64,000 nt of DNA from the NCBI GenBank assembly GCA_964532425.1, contig CAZHIA010000001.1, positions 44,889 through 108,888 on the forward strand, given 5' to 3'. Positions 549 through 56,771 of the stretch are shown here, one piece after another. The DNA is from an uncultured Candidatus Saccharibacteria bacterium (lineage in GTDB: Bacteria; Patescibacteriota; Doudnabacteria; UBA920). A program made the position numbers and the translations under genes. A model generated the notes under the pieces. That model made no database searches. It was not told where the DNA came from and saw nothing but the letters and a program-made list of their open reading frames with translations. The first letter of the stretch is position 1. Every line of letters starts with the position of its first letter.

Positions 549-618
549 CCCCTACGGGAAACAGAGTTGCAGTGTAGGGGCTGCCGACCCTGCCTACCGG
601 CAGGCAGGAGGCGCCCGC
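549..618. repeat. Compound hairpin repeat (family F). Other copies: 10072-10146, and variants at 45366-45418 and 56594-56630.
   Basis: About 90% identical to 10072-10146. GTAGGGG head and a 20-bp CCTGCCTGCCGGCAGGCAGG palindrome. Confidence 0.8.
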
Positions 619-2640: not shown

Positions 2641-3390
2641 ATGGACACAAATGCAGTTGAGGTTAATAATCTTCAAAAGGCGTACCGGACGGTCCAGGCG
2701 GTAAAAGGTATTTCTTTTACGGTCGCACCTGGCGAGATCTTCGCCCTCATTGGACCGAATGGCGCGGGAAAATCCACCACGTTGCGCATACTTGCCACGC
2801 TGCTGCAACCGACCGGCGGCAGTGCAAGTGTATACGGTTTGGATGTAGTCAAAGACGGAGCGCGGGTACGCGAGAATATCAGCTATTTGCCGGAAGAGGC
2901 GGGTGCATACAAGAATCTGACCGGGCGCGGTTATTTGGAATTCATGGCAGGCTTGTTTGCCGACGATGCCGCCAAACAACGCGAATTCGTGAAATTTGCC
3001 GAAGACATTTCCGGACTTGGGCAGCGCTTGCAGGATAAGATTAATACCTACAGTAAAGGTATGACCAGGAAACTGCTGCTGGCGCGAACGGTCATGAGCC
3101 GGCCGCGGCTGGCCATCCTGGACGAACCGACCAGCGGGCTCGACATTATCAATGCCATGGAGATTCGGAAGAATATCCAGGCTTTGAGCCGTGAAGGCAT
3201 GGCTGTACTGCTCTCATCGCACAATATGCTCGAGATAGAGTTCCTGGCGCATCGGGTGGCGATAATTTACCAAGGCACTATCCATGAAACAGGGTCGCCG
3301 CAGGATCTGAAGAACAAGTATCATGCTTCTAATCTGGAAGAAGTATTTCTGGCGATCGTTCAAAGCCAGCAAGGAAAGGCGGCTGTATGA
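2641..3390 (+). CDS. ABC transporter ATP-binding protein
   Basis: Walker A GPNGAGKST, signature-like YSKGMTRK, Walker B LAILDEPTSGLD. Start taken at ATG 2641 rather than the track's 2584. Confidence 0.85.
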   Translation: MDTNAVEVNNLQKAYRTVQAVKGISFTVAPGEIFALIGPNGAGKSTTLRILATLLQPTGGSASVYGLDVVKDGARVRENISYLPEEAGAYKNLTGRGYLEFMAGLFADDAAKQREFVKFAEDISGLGQRLQDKINTYSKGMTRKLLLARTVMSRPRLAILDEPTSGLDIINAMEIRKNIQALSREGMAVLLSSHNMLEIEFLAHRVAIIYQGTIHETGSPQDLKNKYHASNLEEVFLAIVQSQQGKAAV

Positions 3391-5002: not shown

Positions 5003-5611
5003 GAATTGAAAATGCCTCCTTCGGGTCGGTGTCGAAAGTGATAATACCGAAAAAACAGGAATAAGTCAATTCATATAGTAATCTCTAATATACGAATCAA
5101 GCACCAATCCGCCCTCTGGCGGAGGCGGACGAATGCAGCACACCGTCCTTTATTCCTTAGAACGGCCAATAGTTATTCGTATATTTGCGCTGTATTCGTT
5201 ATATTCGAGATTGCTAATAAAAATCCAGGACACCGCTGTGGTGTCCTGGATGGGAGTTCGTGCACGGCTATAGACAGCCGCGGAACGGGTCGAACCCGTA
5301 ACTGAAGAGTGGTGGGAATGGGGCGAATCGGTGGAACAGACGATCGAATTTAAGTTGAGTCCGGAAGGTCCGGTACTTGGTCTTAAACAGCCTGAAGGTC
5401 AGGCGCAGTCCACGTTGCTCGCCTTTCATACCGCGCTGGAACATGCGATCTCCTCCTACAGTTGGGATATATGGCAGTATATAACGGCTTTTTTCCAAAA
5501 GCAAGGGGTAATCAATAGAAAAATAAAAAGATAGAAAATAGAAAGATTGAGATTGCCATAATCTTTTGATCTTTTATTTTTCTATTTTTCTATTGTTTGC
5601 TATACTACAAA

Positions 5612-5733
5612 TACAACCTAAGCGTTATCGCGAGTCCGGCGAGAGCACTGGCTCTATGACCCGGCGGCAACCCTGAGTAGCCCGGCTATTCGATGGGTGC
5701 CCCATCCAGCCCATTAGTAATGGGAAAGATGAT
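5612..5733 (+). ncRNA. SAM-I (S-box) riboswitch
   Basis: TTATCgcGAG...GGCAACC...GGGTGCCCCATCCAGC...AAAGATGA matches the S-box consensus blocks. Lies directly upstream of metK. Confidence 0.75.
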
Positions 5734-5744
5734 TTGATTTTGCG

Positions 5745-5776
5745 CTCAAACCCTTTCCCGCGAAAGGTTTTTTGTT
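5745..5776 (+). terminator. riboswitch expression-platform terminator
   Basis: CCCTTTC-ccgc-GAAAGG followed by TTTTTTG, abutting the metK start. Confidence 0.6.
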
Positions 5777-5777
5777 T

Positions 5778-6812
5778 ATGTACCAGAGTAAGTTCTATAC
5801 GGCCGAGAATGTGGCCCTCGGGCATCCGGATAAGGTCTGTGATCAGATCTCGGACGCTATTTTAGATGAGATTCTCCGGCAGGATTCAAACGGCCGCGTG
5901 GCCATGGAAGCGTTCGGCAGCCACGGGCTTTTGGTTCTTGGTGGCGAGGTTACGGCTGAGGCTGAGGTTGATTATGAAGCTGTAGCCCGCCGGGTTTATA
6001 GCGATATCGGCTACCATGAGCCGCTGGAGGTGTTAGTTCATATTGCTTGCCAGTCGCCGGATATTGCCCGCGGCGTGGATACGGGCGGCGCTGGTGATCA
6101 GGGAATTATGTACGGCTATGCCACGGACGAGACGCCGGAATACTTGCCGACCGGCGTGGTGCTGGCCAGGCAACTGGCGCAAGGACTGGCGGAACTCGGC
6201 CGCAGCCAGCCGGGGATTGGGCCTGACGGTAAGACGCAAGTAACTATGGAGAACGGCATGGTGTGCCGCGTGCTGGTCAGTTGCCAGCACGGCGAAGGTA
6301 TGGAACTGTCCGAGCTGCGGCAGATGCTCGTCGAGCGAGTAATTGTTCCGGTCTGCGGCAGGTTGCAGGACGGGCAGATCCTGGTCAATCCGACGGGCCG
6401 GTTCGTGCAAGGAGGGTTTGCAGCGGATGCGGGCCTGACCGGCCGCAAAATTATGGTTGATACCTATGGCGGGCTGGCGCCCCATGGCGGCGGCGCATTC
6501 TCCGGCAAGGATCCTTCCAAGGTCGACCGCAGTGCCGCGTACCTGGCGCGCTTAGCCGCCAAACATATGGTATCTGCCGGGCTGGCGCACGAGTGCCTGG
6601 TGTCGGTGGCATATGCCATCGGCCAAGAGCAGCCGCTTATGGTTTCCGCGGTTTCGGAGAGCGGGCAGGATCTTTCGGCGGCAGTGAAGCGGCATTTCGA
6701 TTTCAGGCCGCTGGCAATTATTGAACGGTTAGGCTTGCGCCGGCCAATCTATCGACAAACTGCCTGCTTCGGCCATTTTGGCCGGCCGGGTTTGCCGTGG
6801 GAAGAGTTATAA
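5778..6812 (+). CDS. metK: S-adenosylmethionine synthetase
   Basis: GHPDKVCDQISDA and GGGAFSGKDPSKVDRSAAY motifs. Start taken at ATG 5778; the track calls TTG 5772. Confidence 0.9.
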   Translation: MYQSKFYTAENVALGHPDKVCDQISDAILDEILRQDSNGRVAMEAFGSHGLLVLGGEVTAEAEVDYEAVARRVYSDIGYHEPLEVLVHIACQSPDIARGVDTGGAGDQGIMYGYATDETPEYLPTGVVLARQLAQGLAELGRSQPGIGPDGKTQVTMENGMVCRVLVSCQHGEGMELSELRQMLVERVIVPVCGRLQDGQILVNPTGRFVQGGFAADAGLTGRKIMVDTYGGLAPHGGGAFSGKDPSKVDRSAAYLARLAAKHMVSAGLAHECLVSVAYAIGQEQPLMVSAVSESGQDLSAAVKRHFDFRPLAIIERLGLRRPIYRQTACFGHFGRPGLPWEEL

Positions 6813-9465: not shown

Positions 9466-9759
9466 AACCTGCCTCCTTGTATGAAGGCATTGTAGCAGAA
9501 AACGGCAATGGAGTGCAGGCCGCTGGCCTGCTGATAAATAAAAAGATTCAAAAATAGAAATATAAAAAATTATAAGAACTGTAGATTATGTAGGTAATAT
9601 CTACCCTACAATTTCTTGGATCTTTCTATTGGCAGGGCACGGCCCTGCACTACAAGAACAGGGGTGCATATGAATACCACTGTAGTACAGGCCCGTGGCC
9701 TGCTCCGTGTAGGGGCAGGCAGGAGGCGCCCTCTTCTTAAAGCACCAAAAACAAATCTC

Positions 9760-10052
9760 AAATTACAAATAATATCCAAATTTCAAATTCGAAATTCTGC
9801 AGATTGGATATTGAATATTGTCTCCCTCCAGGAGATCTACCGCAGGTACGAGGTATTAGGAAGTAGTCTCAAAACCTCCTTATGGCGTCATTCTGAGTCC
9901 TGAGTTCGACGAAGGACGAAGAATCTCATGATCGGTAAGAGATACTTCGGTCGTCTGACTCCCTCAGTATGACGCCGGAGAGGGAGTATCCTGGTTTTGA
10001 GACCGCTTCTAGAATAAATCTTAAAATTTGATGCTTGGGATTTGGAATTTGA
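9760..10052 (+). mobile_element. MITE-like element, copy 1 (~293 bp) with a long internal hairpin (GGCGTCATTCTGAGTCCTGAG...CTCAGTATGACGCC) and AT-rich CAAATTTCAAATTC-type termini
   Basis: About 95% identical to the reverse complement of 44737-45032; a partial core copy lies at 37694-37866. Confidence 0.8.
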
Positions 10053-10453
10053 ACGGCGGGCAGCTGCCGCTTGCCCCTACGGGGACCAGGTCTTTGCAGC
10101 GTAGGGGCCGCCGACCCTGCCTGCCGGCAGGCAGGAGGCGTCCTCTCGCACAAAGCCTAAATCCTAAATTTTAAATCCTTAATCCGTATTGATAGCCAGT
10201 CTCTTCAAAACCCGGTACAATGAGAGCAGGCTGTGACTTAATTTTTCTAGTTTCTATTTTTCTATTTATTATGTTGGCAATTATTTTCGGCCTTGTTGCT
10301 ATCGGAATATTCGTCCTGTTTCGGGAGGCGTTTTCGCATGCACCGACTTCGCCGCAGCGGCCAAAGCCGGCCGCTTCGGGTGATGCCCTCGTTCGCTTCG
10401 GCCTCGGGCAGCGCCGCAAGAGTCAGCGCCGATTGCATATAGAAAAGCCGGCC

Positions 10454-11755
10454 ATGGAGTTTAATCCCGAGAACAGCCGGGCTTTGGATTTGCTCGAGAA
10501 TTCCCGCCGCAATATTTTTCTGACCGGGCGGGCCGGGGCGGGTAAATCTACCTTGCTCATGTACTTTCGCGCTACTACCAAAAAGAACGTGGCTGTGGTC
10601 GCGCCGACCGGTGTGGCTGCCATTAACGTGCAGGGCCAGACCATTCATCGCTTCTTCCGCTTTAAGCCGGATATTACGCTCGACAAAGTGCCGAAGTATT
10701 TGGACCGCGACCGGGATCTCTATAAAGAATTAGACACACTGGTCATAGACGAGATCTCCATGGTGCGGGCTGATCTGCTCGATTGTGTGGATGCGTTCTT
10801 GCGTATGCACGGACCGGAACCGGGCAAGGTTTTCGGCGGCGTGCAAATGGTGTTCATGGGAGACTTATACCAATTGCCGCCCGTGGTCAAGGACGAGGAA
10901 GAGGAAATTTTCCAGACGCACTATCGCACGGAGTTTTTCTTTTCCGCCAAGTGCCTGCAGCAGACCACGCTCATTCCGCTGGAACTGACCCGCGTGTACC
11001 GCCAGAGCGATGAAGGCTTTAAGAAAATTTTAAACGACATCCGCGACGGTACAGTCAGTGACCAGGACTTGGCAGTTTTGAACTCCCGCGTTGACCGCGA
11101 TTTTTCGCCTGCACAGGAAGAGGGTATTGTCCGCGTATGGTTGGTACCGACGCGCGCCCAAGCCGCGGAAATTAATGGCTGGCACATGGAACATCTGCCT
11201 GGCGCCATGCGCATGTACCACGGTTCGGTAGAGGGTAGGTTTTCCGAGCGCGACATGCCAACACCGTTGGAATTGGAGTTGAAAGTCGGTACGCAGGTTA
11301 TGCTGCTCAATAACGACAGCAAGGGGCGCTGGGTTAACGGCGACGTGGCCCGGGTGGTAGATTTGCGCCAGGATTTTATCCGCGTCAAGTTCGACGACGG
11401 CACGTTCGATGATGTCGAACGCCATACCTGGGACGCGTTCCGTCATACGCTCGAAAAGGGGAGTAATAAGATTGTCGCGGTTTCCGACGGCAGTTTTACC
11501 CAGTTTCCGGTCAAGCCGGCTTGGGCGTTAACCATCCACAAGTCGCAAGGTAAGACGTATGATCATGTGGCCATCGATTTAAGCCGCGGTACTTTTGCGG
11601 CCGGCCAGGCTTATGTGGCCTTGTCGCGCTGCCGCACGCTTGAAGGTCTTATTTTAAAAACCCCGCTGCGCCGCCATCACGTTATGATAGACAAGGAAGC
11701 CGCGGAGTTCATGAAGGTGGTATCATTTTTAGCGGAGAAGGGACATATCCCCTAA
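10454..11755 (+). CDS. PIF1-family 5'-3' DNA helicase (paralog 1)
   Basis: Walker A GRAGAGKST and the C-terminal TIHKSQGKTYDHVAIDLSRGTFAAGQAYVALSRCRTLEGL motif. Start set at 10454 by alignment with paralog 2. The track's start at 10220 adds a doubtful TM segment that overlaps an AT-rich repeat. Confidence 0.8.
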   Translation: MEFNPENSRALDLLENSRRNIFLTGRAGAGKSTLLMYFRATTKKNVAVVAPTGVAAINVQGQTIHRFFRFKPDITLDKVPKYLDRDRDLYKELDTLVIDEISMVRADLLDCVDAFLRMHGPEPGKVFGGVQMVFMGDLYQLPPVVKDEEEEIFQTHYRTEFFFSAKCLQQTTLIPLELTRVYRQSDEGFKKILNDIRDGTVSDQDLAVLNSRVDRDFSPAQEEGIVRVWLVPTRAQAAEINGWHMEHLPGAMRMYHGSVEGRFSERDMPTPLELELKVGTQVMLLNNDSKGRWVNGDVARVVDLRQDFIRVKFDDGTFDDVERHTWDAFRHTLEKGSNKIVAVSDGSFTQFPVKPAWALTIHKSQGKTYDHVAIDLSRGTFAAGQAYVALSRCRTLEGLILKTPLRRHHVMIDKEAAEFMKVVSFLAEKGHIP

Positions 11756-11837
11756 ATCACCGCTGAAGGTGCGCTGATTACGACGCTGAAAGGTCGCTTA
11801 TGTAGGGGCGGCCATTGGCCGCCCTGTCCGTGATTCA

Positions 11838-11865
11838 GTAGGGGACGGTCGCGACCGTCCCGTAC
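11838..11865. repeat. REP-like palindrome (family E): GTAGGGGACGGTCGCGACCGTCCCGTAC. Related copies at 11797-11822, 11937-11965, 21590-21613, 22897-22924, 46565-46590, 50870-50899 and 51115-51144.
   Basis: Near-perfect palindrome with the GTAG head typical of RAYT-mobilised REPs; eight copies in the window. Confidence 0.8.
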
Positions 11866-13865: not shown

Positions 13866-15968
13866 ATGTCCGAAGACAATTCTCCTCTTTACACGAAATC
13901 CTATTACGAAGAAGTCCGTAAAATCCACCCCCGCATGGGCAAGAAGTGGACTGCGGACGAAGACCAACAGCTTAAGAATGCCTACCTGCAATTCAAGGCG
14001 CAGCCGTCGGCGAATTTTGACGTGTTCCTGCAGGAACTGGTCGAGCAGTTCGGCAGGGCTTCGGGCGGCATTAAGGCAAGGTTAGCTAAATATTTTGAGG
14101 ACGTCCCGGGTTGGGACTATGGCCGCGATGCGTTCCGGCAGGAACAGCTCAATAAGGAGGCAGAGTCAGCCATTCCCAAAGACGACGAGGAGGTGCTGGT
14201 TCGGGCGTACCGCTTGTATGAAGAATCAAAAAATGAGACGTACATGGCCTTTTTACGGCGCATGTCGGAACGCCTTGGAAATATTGAGGGGAGGCTTATA
14301 ACGCACCGTTTATCGCAATTGGTCGGCGAGGTAAAAAAGTACAATAAGGAAGATGTAGGGGCGGCCAGTGGCCGCCCGCACCCAGGGAGTGATCGCGAAA
14401 AAAATACTCCCGACGTCTCAGATATCGACTTTTCTGGCAACCTTGAAGCAGGCGAGGCCTTGCGCCTTATGGAGCAGACCCGGGAAAATCTGTTTTTGAC
14501 CGGAGAGGCTGGAACCGGGAAATCGACCCTGCTGCAGTTCTTCCGCTATACCACCCAAAAGAACGTGGTGGTGCTCGCTCCGACCGGGGTGGCTGCTTTG
14601 AATGTGGAAGGCCAGACCATTCATTCGTTTTGCGGGTTCGGTCCGGATATTACGGTGCACAAGGTCAAGAAGCTAGGCCCATGGGCGCCCAAGCGCAAGC
14701 TGCTTAATAAGCTCGATGCGATTATTATAGACGAGATCTCCATGGTCCGCGCTGATCTGCTTGATTGCGTGGACAAGTTTTTGCGCATGAACGGGCCGAC
14801 TGGGACGCAAGCCTTTGGTGGCATTCAAATGATTTTCATCGGTGATCTTTATCAACTCCCGCCAGTATCCGCCGAAAGGCCTGTTGGCCAATCAGGCGGA
14901 CCCGCCACAATGTCCCGTTTTGGCGGGGCTTTGGGCGGGGAGAAGGGTTTTTATGGTGATCCTCTCCTGTCCCAATACGCCTCTCCTTATTTTTTTGATG
15001 CCCTTGCATATAAGCAGACGAAGTTCCACCACATCGCCCTCAAGCAAATGTACCGGCAGAAGGACCGGGTGTTCATCGACGTGCTGAATGCGGTGCGCAA
15101 CAATGCAGCCATGCAGGAACATTTGACCGTCTTAAACCAGCGCGCGCAGACTGCGGGTGCCAAGTTCACGTTCGAGAAATTTGCAATTTATTTAACTACT
15201 ACGAACCAACGCGCGCGGCAAGTGAATAATTTTTTCATTGAGCGCTTGAAGGGAGAGCTGAAGACTTTTCAGGGGCGCACTGCCGGAACCTTTGAGGACC
15301 GAGAGCTGCCCACAGACTTGAATTTGCAAATCAAGGTCGGCGCCCAAGTCATGATGCTCAACAACGACCGCAAGAAGCGCTGGGTCAATGGCACTATGGG
15401 GAAGATAGTTGCCATAGGTTTTGGTAATACCGATGTTGAGCAGGCCCGCGGCCTGCCCTCCCGGATGGAGAATGGTAGTGTGGTTTCTTCTCCCCAGGCG
15501 TGGGAAGATGCCCCGCAGGGGCAGAGAGGTCGAACCCTGGAAGCTGAAGATCAATCTCCCGAACTCACCTACGAACCCATCTCTCCATATGACTACCGCC
15601 CGCAATCTTCTGGCATGGTGGTAACCGTGGAATTGGAAACAGGGGAGACCGTAGACGTGACGCCGTTCACCTGGGAGATGCACAAGTTCGTGCTCGACAA
15701 GGAAACGGAGAAAATAGACATTCAGACCACGGGCACGTTCACGCAATACCCGTTCAAGTTGGCTTGGGCCGTGACCATACACAAGGCCCAGGGCAAGACG
15801 TTCGACAAGGTGTATGTGGATCTTTCCACCGGCACCTTCGCGCACGGCCAGCTCTACGTTGCCCTCTCGCGCTGCCGCACTCTGGAAGGTCTCTTCCTCC
15901 GCCGTCCCATCACCCCCGCCGACATCCTCCTCGACCAGCGCATTGTCCAATTTCTGAATTCGTTATAA
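13866..15968 (+). CDS. PIF1-family DNA helicase (paralog 2) with an ~200-aa N-terminal extension containing a Myb/SANT-like motif, plus two internal insertions
   Basis: Core ~65% identical to paralog 1 (GEAGTGKST ... TIHKAQGKTFDKVYVDLSTGTFAHGQLYVALSRCRTLEGL). N-terminus has GKKWTADEDQQLKNAYLQF...GGIKARL. Confidence 0.8.
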   Translation: MSEDNSPLYTKSYYEEVRKIHPRMGKKWTADEDQQLKNAYLQFKAQPSANFDVFLQELVEQFGRASGGIKARLAKYFEDVPGWDYGRDAFRQEQLNKEAESAIPKDDEEVLVRAYRLYEESKNETYMAFLRRMSERLGNIEGRLITHRLSQLVGEVKKYNKEDVGAASGRPHPGSDREKNTPDVSDIDFSGNLEAGEALRLMEQTRENLFLTGEAGTGKSTLLQFFRYTTQKNVVVLAPTGVAALNVEGQTIHSFCGFGPDITVHKVKKLGPWAPKRKLLNKLDAIIIDEISMVRADLLDCVDKFLRMNGPTGTQAFGGIQMIFIGDLYQLPPVSAERPVGQSGGPATMSRFGGALGGEKGFYGDPLLSQYASPYFFDALAYKQTKFHHIALKQMYRQKDRVFIDVLNAVRNNAAMQEHLTVLNQRAQTAGAKFTFEKFAIYLTTTNQRARQVNNFFIERLKGELKTFQGRTAGTFEDRELPTDLNLQIKVGAQVMMLNNDRKKRWVNGTMGKIVAIGFGNTDVEQARGLPSRMENGSVVSSPQAWEDAPQGQRGRTLEAEDQSPELTYEPISPYDYRPQSSGMVVTVELETGETVDVTPFTWEMHKFVLDKETEKIDIQTTGTFTQYPFKLAWAVTIHKAQGKTFDKVYVDLSTGTFAHGQLYVALSRCRTLEGLFLRRPITPADILLDQRIVQFLNSL

Positions 15969-15970
15969 AT

Positions 15971-16033
15971 CCTATCCATCCTATTCATCCTATCCATCTT
16001 ATCAATCCTATCCATCTTATAAATCCCATTTCA
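15971..16033. repeat. period-9 tandem array (7 units: CCTATCCAT, CCTATTCAT ...) directly after the PIF1-2 stop
   Basis: Seven consecutive 9-bp units; this array is the source of the spurious NPIHPIHPIH ORF. Confidence 0.85.
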
Positions 16034-16180
16034 CCCCTTCTTCCCCTTGGCTTCCATTAACCCCCCTTTACCCCCTTAAACCCCTTTTCACCCTTTCTTC
16101 CCTCACTCTGTGTCATTCCGGAATCCGAGTGCAGCCGAGGATGTCCGGAATCCAGTTTATTTCCCCATAAATTCTCTTAT

Positions 16181-16208
16181 TTGACAGGAATTTACCCGGT
16201 GCTATGAT
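16181..16208 (+). promoter_or_regulatory. near-consensus sigma70 promoter
   Basis: TTGACA, 16-nt spacer, TATGAT. Confidence 0.6.
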
Positions 16209-20463: not shown

Positions 20464-20654
20464 CCTCCCTGTTTTAAATGTAATGCAGGCTCTTGGCCTG
20501 CTTGCAGGTGCAGTACTCTCCTCCTGGGATAGGAGGAGTACCCGCCACAGGCGGGGGAGGTGGTATAGAGAAGTTGCGATGTAAATGTAGTGCAGTCCCT
20601 TGGCCTGCCTGCTTGTAGGGAACGGTTTGAAACCGTTCCCAACGGATCCAAGAT

Positions 20655-20958: not shown

Positions 20959-21489
20959 ATGGTCAAGCGCATTCATAAGCGGTTGTTGCGGCTGATTTTT
21001 AATCCTACATATTGGGCAGCAGTGGATTACTTCCATATGGATGATGAAGAGGAAGAAAAGATTGTTAGCCTCTTGCGGTTTAATGCCCTTGCCATGACCC
21101 AACTTATGTTGGATTTTGCCGCAGATTCAGTGCATAACCCGGATCAGCGTGAGTTGTACCGCGAGACTAAGAACTGTTTGATTTCGGAATTCTTGGCAAC
21201 GCTTCAGCCGGACGATGACGAAGAGGGGGACGGAGATGCCGGATGGCGACAAATGGTAGCCATCCAGTACGAGCAATTGCGGCAGACGCATGATGCTTTA
21301 AAAGACCAACTGCCCGATCCTAAGCTTATCAACAACTGGGTTCTCGTTACCACGCTGAATACGTACATTAATATTCGGGAGAAAGAACCGGACTCTGAAG
21401 ATGACTTGTTCGAACTGCTTTATAATACCTTTGGAGAAATGTCCTCCGATGTCCTTGATCCTGTCATTAGCGAACTAAAACGGATTTGA
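20959..21489 (+). CDS. hypothetical acidic protein
   Basis: GAGGA immediately upstream of ATG 20959. The 5' part of the track's ORF 20590.. lies in a repeat, so it is trimmed. Confidence 0.45.
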   Translation: MVKRIHKRLLRLIFNPTYWAAVDYFHMDDEEEEKIVSLLRFNALAMTQLMLDFAADSVHNPDQRELYRETKNCLISEFLATLQPDDDEEGDGDAGWRQMVAIQYEQLRQTHDALKDQLPDPKLINNWVLVTTLNTYINIREKEPDSEDDLFELLYNTFGEMSSDVLDPVISELKRI

Positions 21490-21644
21490 GATTTGAGCTG
21501 TTTCCCTCTTCTCCTTCCAGGAGAAGATGTCCGCCTCCGGCGGACAGATGAGGTGATTATGTAGTGCAAGCCATTGACCTGCTGTTTCCTGTAGGGGCGG
21601 ATAGTATCCGCCGAAATCAAATAGTGTCATCCGGAATAAAAATA

Positions 21645-22835: not shown

Positions 22836-23200
22836 GTGTAGTGCAGGCCCTCTTGTCCGCCGAAGCCTTGGCGAAGGTGGATGACCTGCTCAGCCCCTGT
22901 AGGGGCGGATACCATCCGCCCGGGATTAAAGCAGACGAGGTAGAATGGTAAGTTTAAGCTGTCAGTAAATGTAGTGCAGGCCCTCGGCCTGCTGGGAGAT
23001 GGCGTTTCTCCCTCTCCTTATTCGCAGATCTGCCATAGTTTTAACGTAGGAGGACATAGGAGAGGATGAAGGTGAGGTTATTGACACAGAGAGTACTGAA
23101 GGTAGAGGTTGCAGTCACCCCCTCTCCTTGCATAGGAGAGGGTAGGGGTGAGGTTATTTGGTGTATGTAGTGCAGGCCCTTGGCCTGCAAGGTGCAGGAG
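22836..23200. repeat. cluster of hairpin repeats: family D (TGTAGTGCAGGCCCTTGGCCTGC; copies at 22838, 22968 and 23165), family E (22897) and CTCTCC/GGAGAG palindromes (23108-23160)
   Basis: Several dispersed families sit together here. D copies elsewhere: 9632, 9681, 20478, 20585, 21560, 46459 and 46517. Confidence 0.8.
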
Positions 23201-27507: not shown

Positions 27508-27516
27508 GCAAGGTTT

Positions 27517-28176
27517 ATGCACCCCCAATTATATTATCAACACCATTTTTATCCATTATGCTATGGTATTCTACAATCCCATGAGTCTTTTTACTTAACC
27601 TCTGAATTTTGGACCGCCATGGCAGTTGTGGTGGCATTGATTACACCTTGGATTGTAAATTGGCTGAGTAACAAACCTAAGTTGAGTAAAATAAAAGCGA
27701 TAGGAACGAGGGTAGTGGACCAGACAAATTATGATCATGATGAGACTCTAAGAGAAGCATATACTCTCCATGTTGGCAGGCTAGTGTTAAAAAATGAGGG
27801 GGAATACACAGCTAGATCAGTAGAAGCATACTTGGAAAGGATTGTATACGAAGGTGAAGAGAGGAAGGATTTTCTACCCATGCCTCTTTCTTGGACCCAT
27901 GGACAACTTAATAAAGATGGAATTACAGTAAGAGATATCTATCCTAATCAAGCAGTTTATTTGGATGTTTTCAACCATTTTTTTAATCCTTATATTGTTG
28001 GTGATAGGGAAACTAAATTTGCTGTTGGGACTGGCGAGAACTTCGAAAATCTATCTTATGTCAATACTGGAAAATCAGATGTATATATAAAGTTTTATCA
28101 AGAAAGTGGACAGGTTAATACAGTACATTTAATCAGTAATTGGGATAATGGGGTCCCTGAATTATCAATTGTATGA
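27517..28176 (+). CDS. hypothetical protein (219 aa, one N-terminal TM), sitting between the SNF2 gene and the methyltransferase
   Basis: Starts 10 bp after the SNF2 stop. Its stop overlaps the mod start by 4 bp. No recognisable domain. Confidence 0.5.
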
Positions 28177-29843
28177 ATGACCATAAACAAAAACTGGAAT
28201 TAACATGGATTGGTAAGAATGAAGAGCTTAGGCTCGAACCTCGAATTCTGATTGAGGATCCCGATAAATCTTATGGTGATGTGGAATCGGAGAATCTTCT
28301 CATTCATGGTGACAATCTTCTCGCTCTGAAAGCTCTTCAGCAAGACTTCGCAAGTCGTGTTAAGTGTGTGTATATTGATCCACCCTATAATACAGGTAAG
28401 GCTTTCGACAAATATGATGACGGTATCGAACATTCAATTTGGCTCAATTTAATGCGCCCACGGATTGAGTTGCTTCACAGCCTTTTGGCTACCGATGGGA
28501 TAGTTTGGATCTCTTTAGATGACGTAGAAGTACATTATATGAAAATATTGTGTGACGAAGTATTCGGAAGAAATAATTTTATAGCTTCGTTGCCAACTAT
28601 TATGAATCTCAAAGGTAATAATGATGAATTTGGCTTTGCTGGTACTCATGAATACACTTTGGTTTACGCAAAAGATATATCCACCGCAAAAATTGGAATG
28701 TATGAGATTGATGAAGAAGAGATGGAGGATTGGGAAAAGGATGATATTGGGTTTTTCAAAAGAGGTGCAAATTTAAAAGCGACTGGAACAAACGCTCCCA
28801 GAGAAAAAAGACCAAACTTATATTATCCTTTATATGTTAGCGAAGATAATACCGTATCTATTACAAGACAGTCTGCTTCAGATGTAGAAATATTGCCTAT
28901 TACTGATGGGAAAGAAATGTCTTGGAGATGGAGTAAAGATAAAGTAACCAATGAGCCTTACAATATTATCATAGTTAGGAATGGTGATAATGTCTCTGTT
29001 TATAAAAAACAAAGGCCAGAGATTGGTGAACTGCCAAGTAAAAAACCAAAAACGTTATTTTATAAACCAGAGTATAGTAGTGGTAATGGAACTTCCCAAT
29101 TAAAGAGGTTGTTTGGGGAGGTGGTTTCTGTTTTTCCTTATCCAAAACCAGAAGAATTGATAGCTGATTTTATAAAGTTAACTACTTCTCCAGGAGATAT
29201 TATCCTGGATTCATTTCTTGGTTCTGGTACTACAGCTGCGGTGGCGACAAAGTTAGGAAGAAAATGGATAGGTGTTGAGATGGGGGATCATTCCTATACT
29301 TTGTGTGTACCACGTTTGCGATTAGTAATAGATGGTAAAGATGATGGAGGTATATCAAAAAAAGTAAACTGGAAAGGTGGTGGGGGGTTTAAATTTTATA
29401 ATCTTGCTCCCAGCTTGTTACGGAAGGACGGCTTTGGAAATTTTGTAATTGATGAAAAATATAATGCAAACATGTTGGCTGCAGCTGTGTGCAAGCATGA
29501 AGGTTTTAAATACTTCCCTGACGAAACTTTGTATTGGAAACAGGGTAGATCCACGGAAGCTGACTATATTTTTGTAACCACAGGTTTTGTTACAGTTGAA
29601 CAGCTTGATAAAATCCACGCGGAGATGAAGGAAGGGGAGAGCTTGTTAATTTGCGCCAAAGCTTATGCTTCAGGGTGCGAAAATCATTGTGGAAATATCA
29701 CTGTCAAGAAAATCCCCCAAATGATTTTGGGGAAATGCGAATTTGGGAAAGATAATTATGATCTAAACATTATCAAAGCCACAGAGGCTGAAGCTGAAGA
29801 AGCCGAAATGGCGCAAGTAATCGAAATGTCAGATGAACAATAA
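28173..29843 (+). CDS. mod: DNA methyltransferase (N6-adenine/N4-cytosine family, type III Mod-like)
   Basis: Motif [12 protein letters not shown], and an FxGxG-like AdoMet-binding region [10 protein letters not shown]. Confidence 0.85.
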
Positions 29844-37112: not shown

Positions 37113-37682
37113 ATGCAGATAACTTCCGCAAAATTCGTGAAAGGGGTAGTGGGTCCGGACGGGGTCTTAGACGACGGAACGCCGCAGATTGCGGTCATTG
37201 GCCGCTCTAATGTGGGCAAGTCCAGTTTGATCAATTCCCTGACGCGGCAAAAAAGTCTGGCCCGGACCAGCTCGTTTCCCGGGCACACCCAGGAGATCAA
37301 CGTCTTTTCCATCAACAAATTATTTTACCTTATTGATCTGCCCGGTTACGGGTTTGCCAAGGCCTCGAAAGAAACCCAGGAGCGGCTGCAGCGGATCATC
37401 TATTGGTATTTGTTCGAATCGGGCTGCGAGCAGAAAAAAGTCGTATTGATCGTGGATGCTGTCGTCGGTCCGACAGTCAATGACGAGCAGATGCTGAACA
37501 GCCTGGAAGAGCACGGCAAGGATGTGGTCGTGGTGGCCAATAAGGTAGACAAGCTCAAAAGTTCCGAGTACAAAAAGAAACTGAAGGTCATTCAGGATAT
37601 GGCCGGCGCAATCCCGGTGGTGCCATACTCGTCGGAAAAGAAGATCGGCATTCAGGAATTGACGAACTTATTATTTGATTAG
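37113..37682 (+). CDS. engB: ribosome-biogenesis GTPase EngB (YsxC/YihA)
   Basis: G1 GRSNVGKSS, G3 DLPGYG, G4 NKVDK. Confidence 0.85.
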   Translation: MQITSAKFVKGVVGPDGVLDDGTPQIAVIGRSNVGKSSLINSLTRQKSLARTSSFPGHTQEINVFSINKLFYLIDLPGYGFAKASKETQERLQRIIYWYLFESGCEQKKVVLIVDAVVGPTVNDEQMLNSLEEHGKDVVVVANKVDKLKSSEYKKKLKVIQDMAGAIPVVPYSSEKKIGIQELTNLLFD

Positions 37683-37693
37683 GGAGTAGTTTT

Positions 37694-37866
37694 AAAATCT
37701 CCTTGTGGCGTCATTCTGAGTCCTGAGCCTGCCAACTCCTCGAGTCTGAGCGATCTCGGAATCGAAGACCAACAGGCAGGTTCGAAGAAGGACGAAGAAT
37801 CCCATTATCGGTAATAGATGCTTCGGTCATCTGATTCCCTCAGCATGACGCCGGAGAACAGATATT
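37694..37866 (+). mobile_element. partial (core hairpin) copy of the MITE-like element, carrying a 53-bp internal insertion
   Basis: GGCGTCATTCTGAGTCCTGAG...CTCAGCATGACGCC, homologous to the cores at 9885-9978 and 44800-44905. Confidence 0.7.
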
Positions 37867-37897
37867 TTTGTTACGAAACTATCTCTAGGCTTATTGT

Positions 37898-44736: not shown

Positions 44737-45032
44737 AAATTCCAAATTTCAAGCATCAAATCACAAATAAACTCGAAGCGGTCTCAAAACCAGGACACTC
44801 CCTCTCCGGCGTCATACTGAGGGAGTCAGACGACTGAAGTATCTCTTACCGATCATGAGATTCTTCGTCCTTCGTCGAACTCAGGACTCAGAATGACGCC
44901 ACAAGGAGGTTTTGAGACTACTTCCTAATACCTCGTACCTGCGGTAGATCTCCTGGAGGGAGACAATATTCAATGTACAAATCCTTTTTGGACTATTGAA
45001 TTTGAAATTTGGATATTATTTGTGATTTGAGG
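44737..45032 (-). mobile_element. MITE-like element, copy 2 (inverted relative to copy 1)
   Basis: Reverse complement is ~95% identical to 9760-10052. Confidence 0.8.
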
Positions 45033-45311
45033 CTTGTTACTTCTATAAGCGGGCGGATCCAGCCTTCGCGTAAAGCTCCCTCCTTCGCTTAAGCTACGGA
45101 GGACAAGACGGCGGACTCAGTAAATCTCGTCCCTACACTGCATGGAACGCTTGACTGAAGTTAAAAACAGCCTTAGACTAAAGGAACTATGAATAAACTT
45201 CGCGCATCCAACATGCTGGCATCCAGCAATAAGTTCTATTTTGCGGCCTCTGGCAAGAGGCTGGTTTTTGGGTGCCGAAGGCTGCGCGTTCCATAATTCC
45301 TTCGACGTCTG

Positions 45312-49829: not shown

Positions 49830-49971
49830 TGTCATTGCGAGCTTCGGGGCTTTGACCGAAGCGCGGCAATCTTTCCATTTAAAGAGATCCCTCGGATGCA
49901 CTCGGGATGACGCCAAAGGCATCAGATTGCTTCGTAAGCAAGCCCAAGCCCTTGCTTCCTCGCAATGACAT
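49830..49971. repeat. nested hairpin repeat (family B): GTCATTGCGAG ... GCAATCT..AGATTGC ... CTCGCAATGAC. Other copies at 53660-53756, 55538-55627 and 56469-56631.
   Basis: Four copies with conserved outer and inner stems and variable loops. Confidence 0.8.
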
Positions 49972-50584: not shown

Positions 50585-51118
50585 ATGAATATGTTTCAAA
50601 GAAAAGTCCATCGTTTGCAAGAATACGACTATTCCCAGCCAGGGTATTATTTTGTTACCCAGTGCGTACAAGATCGGAGATGTTGTTTGGGAGCGATGGC
50701 AGGAGGGGAGGTAATGTTGAATGAATACGGGAAGATCGTGCAGCGACAATGGCAATGGTTGGCCGAACATTTTCCAAATGTACAATTAGATGAATTTCAG
50801 ATCATGCCCAACCACGTGCATGGGATTGTGATCATAACCCCGGCGGGAAACGGCCAGGGTGGTGTGTTTGTAGGGGACGGTCGCGACCGTCCCGTACAGA
50901 AACCGCTTCCCGATTTAATCGGCGCATTTAAAACTACATCGTCAAAACTAATCCATCGTGCAGGTTTTACCGATTTCTCTTGGCACCGGTCCTTCTACGA
51001 CCACATCATCCGTAAAGACGAATCGTTAGACAAAATCAGGGAATACATTCGTACCAATCCCAAGCAGTGGGAATTGGATGAGGAGAATCCAAAAAAATTT
51101 AATAATGTTATTTCGTAG
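50585..51118 (+). CDS. REP-associated tyrosine transposase (RAYT; IS200/IS605 TnpA-like HuH Y1 transposase)
   Basis: HuH motif MPNHVHGIV. Catalytic-Tyr region SWHRSFYDHIIR. A 30-bp REP (GTAGGGGACGGTCGCGACCGTCCCGTACAG) lies in frame at 50870-50899 and another copy overlaps the stop codon (51115-51144). Confidence 0.8.
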   Translation: MNMFQRKVHRLQEYDYSQPGYYFVTQCVQDRRCCLGAMAGGEVMLNEYGKIVQRQWQWLAEHFPNVQLDEFQIMPNHVHGIVIITPAGNGQGGVFVGDGRDRPVQKPLPDLIGAFKTTSSKLIHRAGFTDFSWHRSFYDHIIRKDESLDKIREYIRTNPKQWELDEENPKKFNNVIS

Positions 51119-53655: not shown

Positions 53656-53785
53656 CAGGTGTCATTGCGAGCCCGAGTGCAGCCGAGGGCGTGGCAATCT
53701 TACAAGATGAGATTGCTTCGTCAGCAAGATAAGGCCCTTGCTTCCTCGCAATGACAGCGCCATAAATAATTTTGTCAATTGTACT

Positions 53786-55311: not shown

Positions 55312-55642
55312 ATAATATCCTTGATGGAAATCTTCCTGAGGTATGCGCTCAGCGTTATATCCGCGTAGAAATCCGCGATAGATCAGCGGTTAGATCTATC
55401 GGTATTTTGGTCGCTTGCGAAATTAAAGTGGGTTGTGGATAATAAGTATTCTTGCGAGTTTTCGGGCACTTGACAGGTTTTTGAAAGCGGTTTAATATGT
55501 GTATGTAATACACTAATTGGACGTCAGACAGCGTAGGTTGTCATTGCGAGTGAAGCCGAAGCAATCTTCTGATGGGGGAAAGATTGCTTCGGCTAAAAGA
55601 TAAAGCCCTTTTAGGCTCGCAATGACAAGGAGAAGAGAAGAC

Positions 55643-56402: not shown

Positions 56403-56771
56403 GCCCCCTATATTTTTTTCTTCTTAATTAGTGTAAAAAATACACCATATGTAAACTATCCATTGGGTATGTCATTGCGAGGAGTACAATCGATCGAAGA
56501 TCCGCCATATCCGTCTTGGCGGAGGAGGCGGACAAAGCAATCTTTATTTTTTACTCTTTGTTCATGGGTAGGAAAGATTGCCACGCTCGGATGCACCTGC
56601 CTACCGGCAGGTAGGCTCGCTCGCAATGACAGATAAGTCGCAGGTTTTGCCAGGGAGCCTTTGGGCCACTGCTTGATGTCGCGTTGGGCAGCGGTATCCA
56701 TGGGCTCCCCGGCAAGCCCTGCCTCAAAAGCAGAGCCTGAAGCAGTACCTTGTTTGGCATAAGGAGGAACT

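What the first reader, a model, noticed from the sequence alone, without database searches (positions are those of the whole stretch)
9760..10052. A ~295-bp MITE-like element in two inverted copies 34.7 kb apart, plus a partial third copy
Copy 1 (9760-10052) and copy 2 (44737-45032, reverse orientation) are about 95% identical. Both end in AT-rich CAAATTTCAAATTC-type inverted termini. Both contain a ~95-nt imperfect hairpin: GGCGTCATTCTGAGTCCTGAG ... CTCAGTATGACGCC.

A core-only copy with a 53-bp insertion lies at 37694-37866.

The inverted pair brackets the 10-45 kb segment, which holds the PIF1/RadC module, the low-GC defence island, and the HNH, NERD and DUF2726-like genes. The pair could mediate inversion of this segment, or mark the edges of a composite element.

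The long conserved hairpin could alternatively be an expressed structured RNA.
Basis: seen in the sequence. Interest (0 to 1): 0.6.

Follow-up and report, generated by a model that had tools for sequence, protein, structure and literature searches.

The report
REP-type hairpin repeat, not a transposon
The reported "MITE" is real, but its conserved hairpin is an inverted pair of CGTC-tagged REP palindromes, a known class of bacterial repeat, here nested inside a longer palindrome in a Patescibacteria genome that also encodes a REP-type transposase; nothing indicates that the two copies invert or bound the 35 kb between them.

Summary
Copy 1 (9750-10050, +) and copy 2 (45038-44737, -) align over about 301 bp. 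Identity is 97% in a 209-nt core and about 77% at the AT-rich ends. A third, core-only copy lies at 37678-37888 and carries a 53-nt nested hairpin.

The 93-nt "hairpin" is not a single structure. It is two short palindromic units in inverted orientation: (G)CGTC-AT-www-GAG-[loop]-CGA-w'w'w'-AT-CTC. Covariation supports each unit folding on its own and does not support the long hairpin. This matches the CGTC-tagged REP superfamily of Di Nocera et al. 2013 (tags outside, heterodimers, intragenic members such as Rickettsia RPE-4 and RPE-6).

The window holds 16 such units: seven dimers and two singlets. A covariance model built only from other Patescibacteria genomes finds the window copies at E about 1e-17. 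In those genomes the dimers are insertion-polymorphic and often sit in frame inside LeuRS, MnmA, MiaA and TatD.

The window also encodes a RAYT-like Y1 transposase (50585-51118) flanked by GTAG REPs.

There is no target-site duplication, no parent IS and no Rfam match. Gene orientation and GC skew show no fixed inversion, and the bracketed 35 kb mixes housekeeping and defence genes. Verdict: a new member of a known kind.

The parts
9750..10050 (+). Copy 1 of the about 301-bp composite repeat. Layout: heptad AT-rich left end, left arm, extended palindrome with the REP dimer, heptad AT-rich right end.
   Evidence: Local alignment with copy 2. Identity by block. Lies between the SLT gene (-) and PIF1 (+).
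9860..10012 (+). Extended palindrome that hosts the dimer. Outer stem GAAGTAGTCTCAAAACC / GGTTTTGAGACCGCTTC, inner stem CTCC / GGAG.
   Evidence: MFE fold. Copy 3 keeps an outer stem using a different 3' sequence (GAGTAGTTT / AAACTATCTC), read directly.
9884..9976 (+). CGTC-tagged REP head-to-head heterodimer (tags outside). Unit 1 is 9884-9927 (ATTCT/AGAAT), the spacer is 9928-9938, and unit 2 is 9939-9976 on the opposite strand (ATACT/AGTAT).
   Evidence: Unit scan. Model R1, built only from other genomes: 74.1 bits, E = 3e-17.
44737..45038 (-). Copy 2 of the composite repeat, inverted relative to copy 1. The REP dimer is at 44808-44900.
   Evidence: R1 gives 73.3 bits, E = 5e-17. Lies between the PEBP gene and an unknown ORF. 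A Logan contig breaks inside its core, as expected for a repeat.
37678..37888 (+). Copy 3: the extended palindrome and dimer only, without the left arm or AT-rich ends. The dimer is at 37707-37852 (ATTCT/AGAAT plus ATGCT/AGCAT). The repeat begins 2 nt before the engB stop codon (TAG at 37680-37682), so the stop lies inside it.
   Evidence: (D5, D10). R1 gives 28.5 bits, E = 2.5e-5. EngB assignment.
37728..37780 (+). 53-nt hairpin module (CCTGCC...GGCAGG) nested in the loop of unit 1 of copy 3. It is inserted after GAG, before T.
   Evidence: Alignment gap. The related 20-nt palindrome CCTGCCTRCCGGYAGGCAGG lies at 589, 10116, 45384 and 56596. The 56596 copy interrupts a unit loop at the same GAG^T position.
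49831..49969 (+). Sister dimer with TGTC tags (GTCATTGCGAG...CTCGCAATGAC). A singlet CGTC unit (49883-49914, ATCCC/GGGAT) is nested in its spacer.
   Evidence: R1 gives 35.7 bits, E = 3e-7.
53661..53755 (+). Sister TGTC-tagged dimer.
   Evidence: R1 gives 45.2 bits, E = 1e-9.
55540..55626 (+). Sister TGTC-tagged dimer.
   Evidence: R1 gives 22 bits, E = 1e-3.
56471..56630 (+). Sister TGTC-tagged dimer with large loop inserts, including the 20-nt palindrome at 56596-56615.
   Evidence: Not found by R1, probably because the inserts are too large.
16112..16156 (+). Singlet TGTC-tagged unit: 8-bp stem ATTCCGGA/TCCGGAAT, CCA tail, and a nested loop hairpin ATCC-GAGTGCAGCCGA-GGAT.
   Evidence: R1 hit at 16109-16198, 17.4 bits, E = 0.02. 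Sequence read.
50585..51118 (+). RAYT-like Y1 (HUH) transposase gene. With its flanking GTAG REPs (50552-50578 and 51115-51142, the latter supplying the TAG stop) it forms a REPtron. A further GTAG palindrome lies in frame inside the ORF at 50870-50897.
   Evidence: 52% identity to the L035 homologue, which hits Pfam Y1_Tnp. NCBIfam REP_Tyr_transpos E = 8e-12, below the curated cutoff. HUH motif HVH and the EYIRTNP tyrosine motif. REPs.

Best explanation
The conserved hairpin is a head-to-head heterodimer of two CGTC-tagged REP units.

**Unit anatomy.** Each unit is itself a small imperfect hairpin. It has a CGTC (or TGTC) tag, a stem that opens with A-T and T-A, three covarying base pairs, a tandem G.A step, a variable loop that can hold further small hairpins, and a short CTC or CCA tail.

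**Composite structure.** In this genome the dimer sits in the loop of a longer palindrome. In the two full copies that palindrome sits between the halves of an AT-rich heptad array. The about 301-bp "element" is therefore a nested, BIME-like mosaic of hairpins, not a cut-down insertion sequence.

**Shown.**
- The unit-level pairing and its covariation.
- Membership of a family that is abundant in Patescibacteria.
- Insertion polymorphism of that family between genomes.
- In-frame insertions in conserved genes of other genomes.
- Nesting of modules inside hairpin loops.
- A REP-type tyrosine transposase with its own GTAG REPs in the same window.

**Inferred.** The units spread as single-stranded DNA hairpins without target-site duplication, inserting preferentially into exposed loops or palindrome centres. 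An HUH/Y1 enzyme acting in trans would do this. The window's RAYT is the only candidate seen, but its cognate repeats are the GTAG type. The two 97%-identical cores then reflect a recent copy or gene conversion of the whole nested block.

**Likely effect on the cell.** Incidental: hairpins in 3' or 5' untranslated regions, and a stop codon supplied to engB. They do not act as ends of a 35-kb mobile or invertible segment.
For: **Unit-level structure.**
- The unit scan finds 15 units in the window against 0.9 in shuffles. Model R1 adds a 16th.
- At the diagnostic positions, within-unit pairs are Watson-Crick in 42 of 46 dimers, and cross-arm pairs in 2 of 46.
- On 37 dimers from other genomes, the units-fold-separately structure is 97.5% paired. 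It has 26 compensatory cells and a covariation score of 0.079 against 0.038, with 0 of 500 shuffles reaching it. Pair 15-37 reads GC 13, CG 12, UG 5, UA 2, AU 1.
- The single-long-hairpin structure has no compensatory change, and pair 43-72 is unpaired in 36 of 37.

**Family membership.**
- Model R1, which contains no window sequence, finds copies 1 and 2 at 74 and 73 bits (E about 1e-17), copy 3 at E = 2.5e-5, and three sister dimers.
- The family is multi-copy in Patescibacteria MAGs: 43 loci, 24 of them in one Saccharibacteria MAG.
- The window organism is Patescibacteria by its best EngB and RAYT hits.

**Mobility in relatives.**
- Ten of 43 dimers lie inside long ORFs. Eight of those ORFs were scanned against Pfam: the domain match runs across the insert in TatD, MnmA (two genomes) and MiaA, the insert lies between flanking domain matches in LeuRS, CarA and a Zn-ADH, and RecX matches only N-terminal to it.
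- Presence and absence are reciprocal: TatD carries the insert in L001 but not L018, and LeuRS carries it in L018 but not L001.

**Nesting.** Seen.

**Transposase.** RAYT-like gene and GTAG REPs.

**Literature.** The match to the CGTC superfamily, including dimers that sit inside longer palindromes, comes from PMC3733652.
Against: - Only three copies of this particular composite are visible. Its genome-wide copy number is unknown, because the source genome is absent from the DNA collections that could be scanned.
- Loops here are 12-60 nt and stems carry G.A mismatches. The published CGTC families have 4-5 nt loops and 8-9 bp stems.
- No enzyme has been linked to CGTC repeats, in the literature or here. 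The RAYT genes examined are flanked by GTAG REPs, not CGTC units, and several RAYT loci have no CGTC dimer within 20 kb.
- Higher identity in the core than at the ends could also reflect selection on a functional RNA.
- U-G pairs occur in the covarying stem, which is more natural for RNA than for DNA.
Confidence: 0.72

Rival explanations
1. It is a classical MITE. On this view an internally deleted insertion sequence, about 300 bp long with AT-rich terminal inverted repeats, is moved by a transposase that recognises those ends.
For: The size is about 300 bp. The ends are imperfectly inverted (CAAATTTCAAATTC against CAAATTCCAAATCC; I4, 12). The outermost 25-40 nt are about 92% identical between the copies.
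Against: - No target-site duplication at either copy.
- The blocks flanking the core are only about 77% identical with indels, against 97% for the core.
- The end motif is a genome-wide heptad array that also exists unoccupied at 52904-53003.
- Copy 3 lacks the ends entirely but keeps the hairpin.
- No IS with matching ends is in the window. The arms have no match in 43 related loci, and a six-frame protein search found nothing.
Confidence: 0.08
2. It is a functional structured RNA. The hairpin would be transcribed and act in cis as an mRNA stabiliser, a processing site or a terminator-like 3' UTR element, or in trans as a small RNA.
For: - Very stable fold on both strands.
- Covarying stems that include U-G pairs.
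- Copy 3 starts at the engB stop codon, so it is almost certainly co-transcribed.
- Many relatives abut gene 3' ends.
- REPs in general are reported to work as RNA elements (PMC3733652).
Against: - No Rfam family, in the window or in 18 related loci.
- No convincing promoter or U-tract terminator at the copies.
- No orientation preference relative to flanking genes: 9 same and 14 opposite in co-directional contexts (tallied by hand from the rows).
- The same sequences occur in frame inside enzymes and are absent from orthologues. That fits selfish DNA better than a dedicated RNA gene.
- This reading does not exclude the main explanation, since a REP can be both.
Confidence: 0.15
3. The inverted pair is a recombination substrate that flips the 34.7-kb segment (a genomic switch), or it marks the ends of a composite mobile element.
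For: The two copies share 209 nt at 97% identity in inverted orientation, which is enough for RecA-dependent exchange. The sharp rise in identity over the core could be a trace of gene conversion between the copies.
Against: - Cumulative GC skew rises without a sustained reversal across both junctions. Genes are mostly on the + strand inside and outside the segment, so no fixed inversion is visible and an inversion would turn about 25 genes head-on.
- The segment mixes housekeeping genes with a defence island whose borders do not coincide with the repeats.
- Inverted repeats at the two ends are not evidence for a composite element, because at least 16 units of the same class are scattered through the window.
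Confidence: 0.05

Closest known systems
CGTC-tagged REP superfamily (Di Nocera, De Gregorio and Rocco 2013, BMC Genomics 14:522; PMC3733652)
   Same: - Tag CGTC, or TGTC in the sister family.
- Stem opening with complementary A-T and T-A.
- Short unpaired tail (CCA in the 16112 singlet).
- Predominantly dimers with the tags outside ("HH"), often heterodimers whose partners differ in stem sequence.
- Units may fold separately or as one long hairpin.
- Intragenic in-frame copies.
- No transposase gene flanked by them.
- Some dimers sit inside longer palindromes.
   Different: - Loops are 12-60 nt and modular (GAGTGCATCCGA, a CCCG...CGGG hairpin, the 20-nt CCTGCC palindrome), not 4-5 nt.
- The stem is interrupted by a conserved tandem G.A step.
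- The tail is mostly CTC.
- The host phylum, Patescibacteria, was not covered in that survey.
- In this window the dimer is part of a 209-301-bp conserved composite.
Rickettsia palindromic elements RPE-4 and RPE-6 (Ogata et al. 2000; equated with CGTC-4 and CGTC-1 in PMC3733652; reviewed in PMC10969869)
   Same: The repeats carry the same tag. In relatives of this window they are inserted in frame in conserved enzymes and translated through in the open frames (GVILS...LRMTP, RRHSE...TQDDA). Both hosts are small-genome, host-dependent bacteria.
   Different: The three copies in this window are intergenic (one overlaps a stop codon), not intragenic. The stem and loop sequences differ from the Rickettsia families.
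REPIN/RAYT and BIME systems of Pseudomonas and E. coli (PMC3116915, PMC2817692, PMC8266576)
   Same: Two inverted REPs form a hairpin. They occur in mosaic arrays with other short repeats. A RAYT-like gene is present in the window, flanked by REPs.
   Different: RAYT-associated REPs carry GTAG, and in this window it is GTAG REPs that flank the RAYT, not the CGTC units of the reported element. The source contig carries at least two RAYT copies 90% identical to each other, whereas RAYTs are usually single-copy.
Bacterial MITEs (Correia, ERIC, Nezha and others; PMC10969869)
   Same: Size of about 300 bp, non-coding, palindromic overall, intergenic.
   Different: No target-site duplication, no conserved TIR-transposase relationship, the ends are less conserved than the centre, and the core is built from REP units.

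Membership tests
CGTC-tagged REP superfamily | Terminal unpaired tetranucleotide CGTC (variants TGTC, CCTC) | tested here: met
   In the window, GGCGTCAT precedes 7 units and TGTCAT precedes 9 (8, plus the 16112 singlet). In the loci, 96 of 108 units are preceded by GGCG.
CGTC-tagged REP superfamily | Stem whose first two positions are complementary A-T and T-A | tested here: met
   All units read AT-www...w'w'w'-AT. Pairs 8-44 and 9-43 are UA in 36-37 of 37.
CGTC-tagged REP superfamily | Stem of 8-9 bp and loop of 4-5 nt | tested here: not met
   The stem has 5 Watson-Crick pairs, a tandem G.A step, then 3-4 further Watson-Crick pairs. Loops are 12-60 nt with nested hairpins. Only the 16112 singlet has a clean 8-bp stem.
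CGTC-tagged REP superfamily | Short unpaired tail at the untagged end (consensus CCA) | tested here: inconclusive
   The tail is CTC or CTT in most units and CCA in the singlet at 16112-16156. In dimers the tails pair with each other.
CGTC-tagged REP superfamily | Mostly dimers with tags outside (HH), frequently heterodimers | tested here: met
   All 7 window dimers have the tags outside. Copies 1-3 are heterodimers (TCT+ACT, TCT+GCT). In the loci TCT+CCT predominates, though one arm was fixed by the search pattern.
CGTC-tagged REP superfamily | Many copies per genome | tested here: inconclusive
   The window holds 16 units in 64 kb. The rest of the 334,850-bp contig could not be read. One Saccharibacteria MAG accounts for 24 of the 43 loci.
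CGTC-tagged REP superfamily | Not flanking a transposase gene | tested here: met
   RAYT genes in the window and in 7 related loci are flanked by GTAG palindromes, not CGTC units.
MITE | Conserved terminal inverted repeats of 15-30 bp | tested here: inconclusive
   Low-complexity heptad ends with imperfect inverted symmetry. They are less conserved than the core and not specific to the element.
MITE | Target-site duplication flanking each copy | tested here: not met
   No direct repeat at the junctions of copy 1 or copy 2.
MITE | Cognate autonomous IS with the same ends | tested here: not met
   None in the window. The arms have no match in 43 loci. The six-frame protein search found 0 hits. 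The whole genome was not available.
REPIN/RAYT system | RAYT (Y1/HUH) gene present in the genome | tested here: met
   Window 50585-51118. NCBIfam REP_Tyr_transpos E = 8e-12, below the cutoff. The homologue L035 hits Pfam Y1_Tnp above the cutoff. More than 1,600 homologues, many named RayT.
REPIN/RAYT system | The repeat in question is the one that flanks the RAYT, with a GTAG tag | tested here: not met
   The RAYT is flanked by GTAG REPs. The reported hairpin carries CGTC tags. A GTAG does open the outer palindrome (GTAGTCTCAAAACC), but this was not shown to be a cognate REP.
Rickettsia-type intragenic palindromic elements (RPE) | In-frame insertion within functional genes | tested here: not met
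   Not met for the three window copies, which are intergenic (copy 3 supplies the engB stop). Met for family members in other Patescibacteria.
Curated structured RNA families (Rfam 15) | Match to a covariance model at the gathering score | tested here: not met
   The only hit in the window is a SAM riboswitch at 5622-5735. Nothing relevant at E <= 10 over 9500-10300. Nothing overlaps the dimers in 18 loci.

The most novel reading that the evidence does not exclude
Patescibacteria carry a phylum-wide, still active, modular branch of the CGTC-REP superfamily.

- Its units insert into the exposed loops of other hairpins, building "Russian-doll" palindromes such as the one reported here.
- Its units also insert in frame into essential enzymes (LeuRS, MnmA, MiaA, TatD).
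- CGTC repeats have no known mobilising enzyme. These roughly 1-Mb genomes encode very few candidate nucleases besides a conserved RAYT, which itself carries a REP inside its ORF. They could therefore be the system in which the mobiliser of CGTC repeats is finally identified.

I found no paper describing these repeats in this phylum.
Probability: 0.3. Interest if true: 0.55.

Novelty: new member of a known kind. Interest (0 to 1): 0.33.

Why it matters
For annotating this window, the result removes a false lead. The two inverted copies are not transposon ends and do not delimit a mobile or invertible island.

More broadly, it extends the CGTC/GTAG REP classification to Patescibacteria. Spurious ORFs and unexplained 25-40-residue inserts in conserved proteins (GVILS...LRMTP, RRHSE...TQDDA) can now be recognised as REP dimers. 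That matters for gene calling, protein-family alignments and contig breaks in metagenome assemblies.

It also offers small genomes that hold both REP classes and a RAYT. The open question of what moves CGTC repeats could be tested there.

Tried and rejected
**Rfam.** Gathering threshold on the whole window, E <= 10 on 9500-10300, and gathering threshold on 18 related loci. No family covers the hairpin.

**tRNA-like reading of the four-way fold.** ARAGORN finds nothing in the window.

**Hammerhead or kink-turn reading of the CUGAG...CGAAG step.** The core motifs do not fit. This was by inspection only.

**Literature search by DNA and peptide strings.** Only irrelevant hits, or none.

**Searching for more full-length copies.**
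- A metagenome scan with the hairpin-specific 21-mer found 0 hits.
- A viral contig scan found 0 hits.
- A six-frame translation of the arms used as a protein query found 0 hits.
- A second metagenome scan for ACT-type units found 5 loci with dimers but not the arms.

**Junction evidence for inversion from other assemblies.**
- Look-ups of SLT, PIF1 and PEBP were not on record.
- The only junction-side contig, L045, simply breaks inside the repeat.
- L044 is identical to the window.

**Finding the transposase.** A crude regex for RAYT motifs missed the gene. tblastn with sequences recalled from memory gave the first lead, and that lead was then confirmed with Pfam and NCBIfam.

**Protein-coding potential of the element.** Only short ORFs (at most 95 aa, running in from flanking non-element sequence) with no homologues.

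**Promoter and terminator scans.** Nothing above chance at copy 1; near copy 2 three terminator-like hairpins (0.7 expected), all outside the element, at 45244-45336.
Full report
**1. The observation**

The repeat finder reports a 209-nt inverted pair, 9804-10012 against 44772-44980, at 97% complementarity. It also reports a 48-nt pair at the left ends at 88%, and two direct matches to 37678-37727 and 37780-37888.

A local alignment bounds the homology at 9750-10050 against 45038-44737. A global alignment gives 90.5% identity overall: 96.7% in the core and 76-78% in the two blocks that flank it, which also carry indels.

The hairpin GGCGTCATTCTGAG...CTCAGTATGACGCC spans 9884-9976 and is 93 nt long. 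The element folds much better than shuffled sequence on both strands (z = -6.3 and -5.1).

**2. What the hairpin is made of**

A scan of one representative genome per species with only the hairpin's two ends specified returned 43 loci. Forty-one come from Patescibacteria MAGs (Saccharibacteria, Doudnabacteria and unclassified). Twenty-four come from a single Saccharibacteria MAG and nine from a single Doudnabacteria MAG. One locus each comes from Hymenobacter and Sphingomonas.

Reading these loci shows a constant skeleton with variable inserts: GGCGTCA-TTCT-GAG-[x]-CGA-AGAA-TCTC-loop-GAGA-TCCT-TCG-[y]-CTC-AGGA-TGACGCC.

The two halves are inverted copies of one unit, but they consistently differ at one stem position: ATTCT/AGAAT in one half and ATCCT/AGGAT in the other. 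In the long-hairpin reading these positions face each other as T.G and A.C. In the window they face each other as T.T and A.A (copies 1 and 2) or T.C and A.G (copy 3). Within each half they are always complementary: TCT/AGA, CCT/AGG, ACT/AGT, GCT/AGC.

- Scoring the positions without assuming pairing, within-unit pairs are Watson-Crick in 42 of 46 dimers and cross-arm pairs in 2 of 46.
- On a MAFFT alignment of 37 dimers from other genomes, the structure in which each unit folds on its own is 97.5% paired. It has 26 compensatory cells and a covariation score of 0.079 against 0.038 in shuffles (0 of 500 reach it). One inner pair reads GC 13, CG 12, UG 5, UA 2, AU 1.
- The single long hairpin shows no compensatory change, and one of its pairs is unpaired in 36 of 37 sequences.

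One caveat applies. The outer 14 columns on each side were fixed by my search pattern, so they carry no information. The signal comes from the inner columns.

The basic object is therefore a unit of about 25-45 nt, and the reported hairpin is an inverted dimer of two non-identical units.

**3. The window is full of them**

A unit scan (TCAT-www-GAG, then the complement of www followed by AT within 110 nt) finds 15 units in the window, against 0.9 in shuffles. They are:

- the three reported dimers;
- four dimers of a sister type, GTCATTGCGAG...CTCGCAATGAC, at 49831-49969, 53661-53755, 55540-55626 and 56471-56630;
- one singlet nested in the spacer of the 49831 dimer.

A covariance model built only from the 37 foreign dimers (R1) finds:

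| Target | Score |
|---|---|
| Copy 1 | 74 bits, E = 3e-17 |
| Copy 2 | 73 bits, E = 5e-17 |
| Copy 3 | E = 2.5e-5 |
| Three of the four sister dimers | E = 1e-9 to 1e-3 |
| A further singlet at about 16112-16156 | E = 0.02 |

Membership of the family therefore does not rest on my regular expressions.

By contrast, the arms of the 301-bp composite (9750-9883 and 9977-10052) have no counterpart in the 43 loci. The hairpin-specific 21-mer is absent from the metagenome collection. A six-frame protein query made from the arms finds nothing. The composite is lineage-specific, while its core belongs to a wide family.

**4. Evidence that the family is inserted DNA**

Ten of the 43 dimers in other Patescibacteria lie inside long ORFs. 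Translation and Pfam were run on eight of these. A single domain match runs across the insert in TatD, MnmA (two genomes, same site) and MiaA. The insert lies between flanking domain matches in the same frame in LeuRS, CarA and a zinc alcohol dehydrogenase, which carries two inserts. RecX matches only N-terminal to its insert.

Presence and absence are reciprocal between two syntenic loci. TatD carries the insert in L001 and lacks it in L018. LeuRS carries it in L018 and lacks it in L001.

At another syntenic site, downstream of a conserved promoter-like 50-mer, three genomes carry three different hairpin repeats. Many other dimers abut gene ends so closely that the TGA within CATYCTGAG serves as the stop codon. 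In the window, copy 3 begins 2 nt before the engB stop codon (TAG at 37680-37682), so the stop lies inside the repeat.

Orientation relative to flanking genes shows no bias: 9 the same and 14 opposite in co-directional contexts (tallied by hand from the rows).

Modules are nested inside hairpin loops:

- The 53-nt hairpin sits in a unit loop of copy 3.
- A 20-nt palindrome, CCTGCCTRCCGGYAGGCAGG, also occurs free at 589, 10116 and 45384. At 56596 it sits in a unit loop at the same GAG^T position.
- A singlet sits in a dimer spacer.
- In copies 1-3 the dimer itself sits inside a longer palindrome. Its 5' side is conserved, while its 3' side differs between copy 1 and copy 3 yet still pairs.

**5. 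A REP transposase in the same window**

tblastn with recalled RAYT and IS200 sequences gave a weak hit next to a dimer in locus L035. That ORF hits Pfam Y1_Tnp. Its homologue is in the window at 50585-51118, with 52% identity and E = 4e-57.

The window protein has the HUH motif (HVH) and the EYIRTNP tyrosine motif. It scores E = 8e-12 against NCBIfam "REP-associated tyrosine transposase". That is below the curated cutoff, but well ahead of the IS200 model. It has more than 1,600 homologues, many from Patescibacteria, and several are named RayT by JGI.

The gene is flanked by GTAG palindromes at 50552-50578 and 51115-51142, and the second supplies its stop codon. A third GTAG palindrome lies in frame inside it at 50870-50897. 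At least 14 GTAG-type REPs lie in the window.

The same arrangement, including the internal palindrome at the same place in the protein, recurs in the seven RAYT homologues examined beyond the window (L035, L061 and five further proteins, each fetched from two assemblies). Several of these sit in a conserved M48-RAYT-RecX neighbourhood. A second copy, 90% identical, lies on the same 334,850-bp contig. A similar copy occurs in a different context in another sequencing run.

CGTC-type dimers are not consistently near these genes.

**6. Comparison with what is known**

Di Nocera et al. 2013 (PMC3733652) sorted REPs into GTAG- and CGTC-tagged superfamilies. The CGTC class is defined by:

- the tag (or TGTC, CCTC);
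- stems that begin with complementary A-T pairs;
- short tails;
- a predominance of dimers with the tags outside, often heterodimers;
- partners that may fold separately or together;
- intragenic copies (Rickettsia RPE-4 and RPE-6, encoding VIPAKAGI, SFPRKRES and similar peptides);
- no associated transposase;
- in some species, location of the dimers inside longer palindromes, including AT-rich ones.

The units here meet the tag, the AT opening, the dimer geometry, the heterodimer habit, the intragenic habit (in relatives) and the lack of a flanking transposase. They differ in having long modular loops, a tandem G.A step and mostly a CTC tail. The host phylum was not in that survey, and I found no paper describing these repeats in it.

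I therefore file the hairpin as a new member of a known kind. The GTAG REPs and the RAYT in the window form an ordinary REPtron.

**7.

*MITE.* There are no target-site duplications and no parent IS. The ends are less conserved than the centre. The end motif also forms an unoccupied palindromic heptad array at 52904-53003. The outermost 25-40 nt are about 92% identical between copies, so the whole 301 bp is homologous by descent. I cannot exclude that the block moved as a unit.

*Composite element or inversion.* The 10-45 kb segment contains:

- two PIF1 genes, an M48 peptidase, RadC, a lipase-like protein, a GalT-like enzyme and YdjM;
- a low-GC island (DrmD-like helicase, type III Mod and Res, PDC-S14);
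- EngB, an HNH protein, a PEMT-like protein, Smr, YkuD, NERD, DUF2726 and PEBP.

This is not a coherent mobile unit, and the island's borders are far from the repeats. GC skew is positive in most 1-kb windows and cumulative skew rises without a sustained reversal across both junctions, and genes are mostly on the + strand throughout. No fixed inversion is visible. Heterogeneity in the population could not be tested, because the only other assemblies of the region are identical to the window or break inside the repeat.

*Structured RNA.* There is no Rfam match. Transcription is untested and remains compatible with the REP reading.

**8. Verdict**

The feature is real. It is a nested, REP-based palindromic repeat, not a MITE and not a boundary of anything. 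Its main interest is that it extends a known repeat class to Patescibacteria, where relatives decorate essential proteins and where the unknown mobiliser of CGTC repeats might be tractable.

Noticed in passing
window 50585-51118 (with 50552-50578, 50870-50897, 51115-51142); L035, L051, L053-L055, L057, L059-L061: Every RAYT-like gene of this Patescibacteria clade that I examined carries a GTAG palindrome in frame inside its own ORF. It lies about 270-300 nt from the start, in the loop after the HUH motif (peptides VGDGRDRPV, VGTGRDLSL, GFKPSPT), in addition to flanking GTAG REPs. The enzyme's own substrate-like hairpin embedded in its gene could be autoregulatory.
   Followed up: partly
outside the window, on the same 334,850-bp contig (P0121); L061 (Logan SRR11567528): A second RAYT copy, 90% identical to the window's, lies on the source contig. 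A similar copy sits in a different context (after a Peptidase_S51 gene) in another run, again flanked by GTAG REPs. RAYTs are usually single-copy.
   Followed up: partly
window 9632-9653, 11802-11865, 14355-14377, 20615-20639, 21591-21612, 22899-23189, 46520-46587 and others: At least 14 GTAG-tagged REPs with perfect 7-bp stems, several in pairs. Copy 1 of the reported element is embedded among them (9632-9735 and 10066-10160).
   Followed up: partly
window 589-608, 10116-10135, 45384-45403, 56596-56615: A 20-nt palindrome, CCTGCCTRCCGGYAGGCAGG, in four copies. Two of the free copies lie within about 350 bp of copies 1 and 2 of the reported element. One copy interrupts a REP unit loop.
   Followed up: partly
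window 52904-53003; 47136-47177; 10157-10185; 21482-21495: Heptad arrays (CAAATNN)n ... (NNATTTG)n form AT-rich palindromes immediately upstream of start codons (for example the ATG at 53002). This is the same motif that forms the "termini" of the reported element. They may be promoter-associated or a preferred target.
   Followed up: partly
window 5494-5554, 9533-9577, 38805-38881, and reverse complement at about 15970-16030: Arrays with an 8-nt period, GATAGAAA/AATAAAAA, in intergenic regions. One lies just upstream of the SAM riboswitch (5622-5735) that precedes metK (5772-6812).
   Followed up: no
window 24562-35221: The low-GC (0.36-0.42) island encodes a DrmD-like SNF2 helicase (PADLOC E = 1e-207), a type III methyltransferase and restriction enzyme, and a PDC-S14 candidate defence protein. 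Hairpin repeats CAGTGCTTATTCGCACGAATAAGCACTG lie at 35418, 36224 and 36553.
   Followed up: partly
window 10220-11755 and 13866-15968: Two PIF1-family helicase paralogues 4 kb apart, with 70-85% nucleotide identity in blocks. An M48 peptidase and RadC lie between them.
   Followed up: no
L007 about 5650-5710 (reverse strand), L024 about 5650-5700, L037 about 3330-3380: A near-identical 50-nt promoter-like sequence (TTGACA-17-TATCAT) is shared by a Doudnabacteria MAG, a Saccharibacteria MAG and an unclassified Patescibacteria MAG. In each genome it is followed by a different hairpin repeat: a CGTC dimer, a TGTC singlet plus CGTC dimer, or four copies of CCGAGGGTWACCCTCGG.
   Followed up: no
L041 3385-4752; L018 2184-5372: A zinc alcohol dehydrogenase carries two separate REP-dimer inserts, one CGTC type and one TGTC type. 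A LeuRS carries a REP-dimer insert and also an apparent Ser_hydrolase domain inside the protein.
   Followed up: no
L027 2954-3068: A LOOT RNA (RF03000, 62.8 bits) in a Saccharibacteria MAG locus. It is unrelated to the repeats.
   Followed up: no
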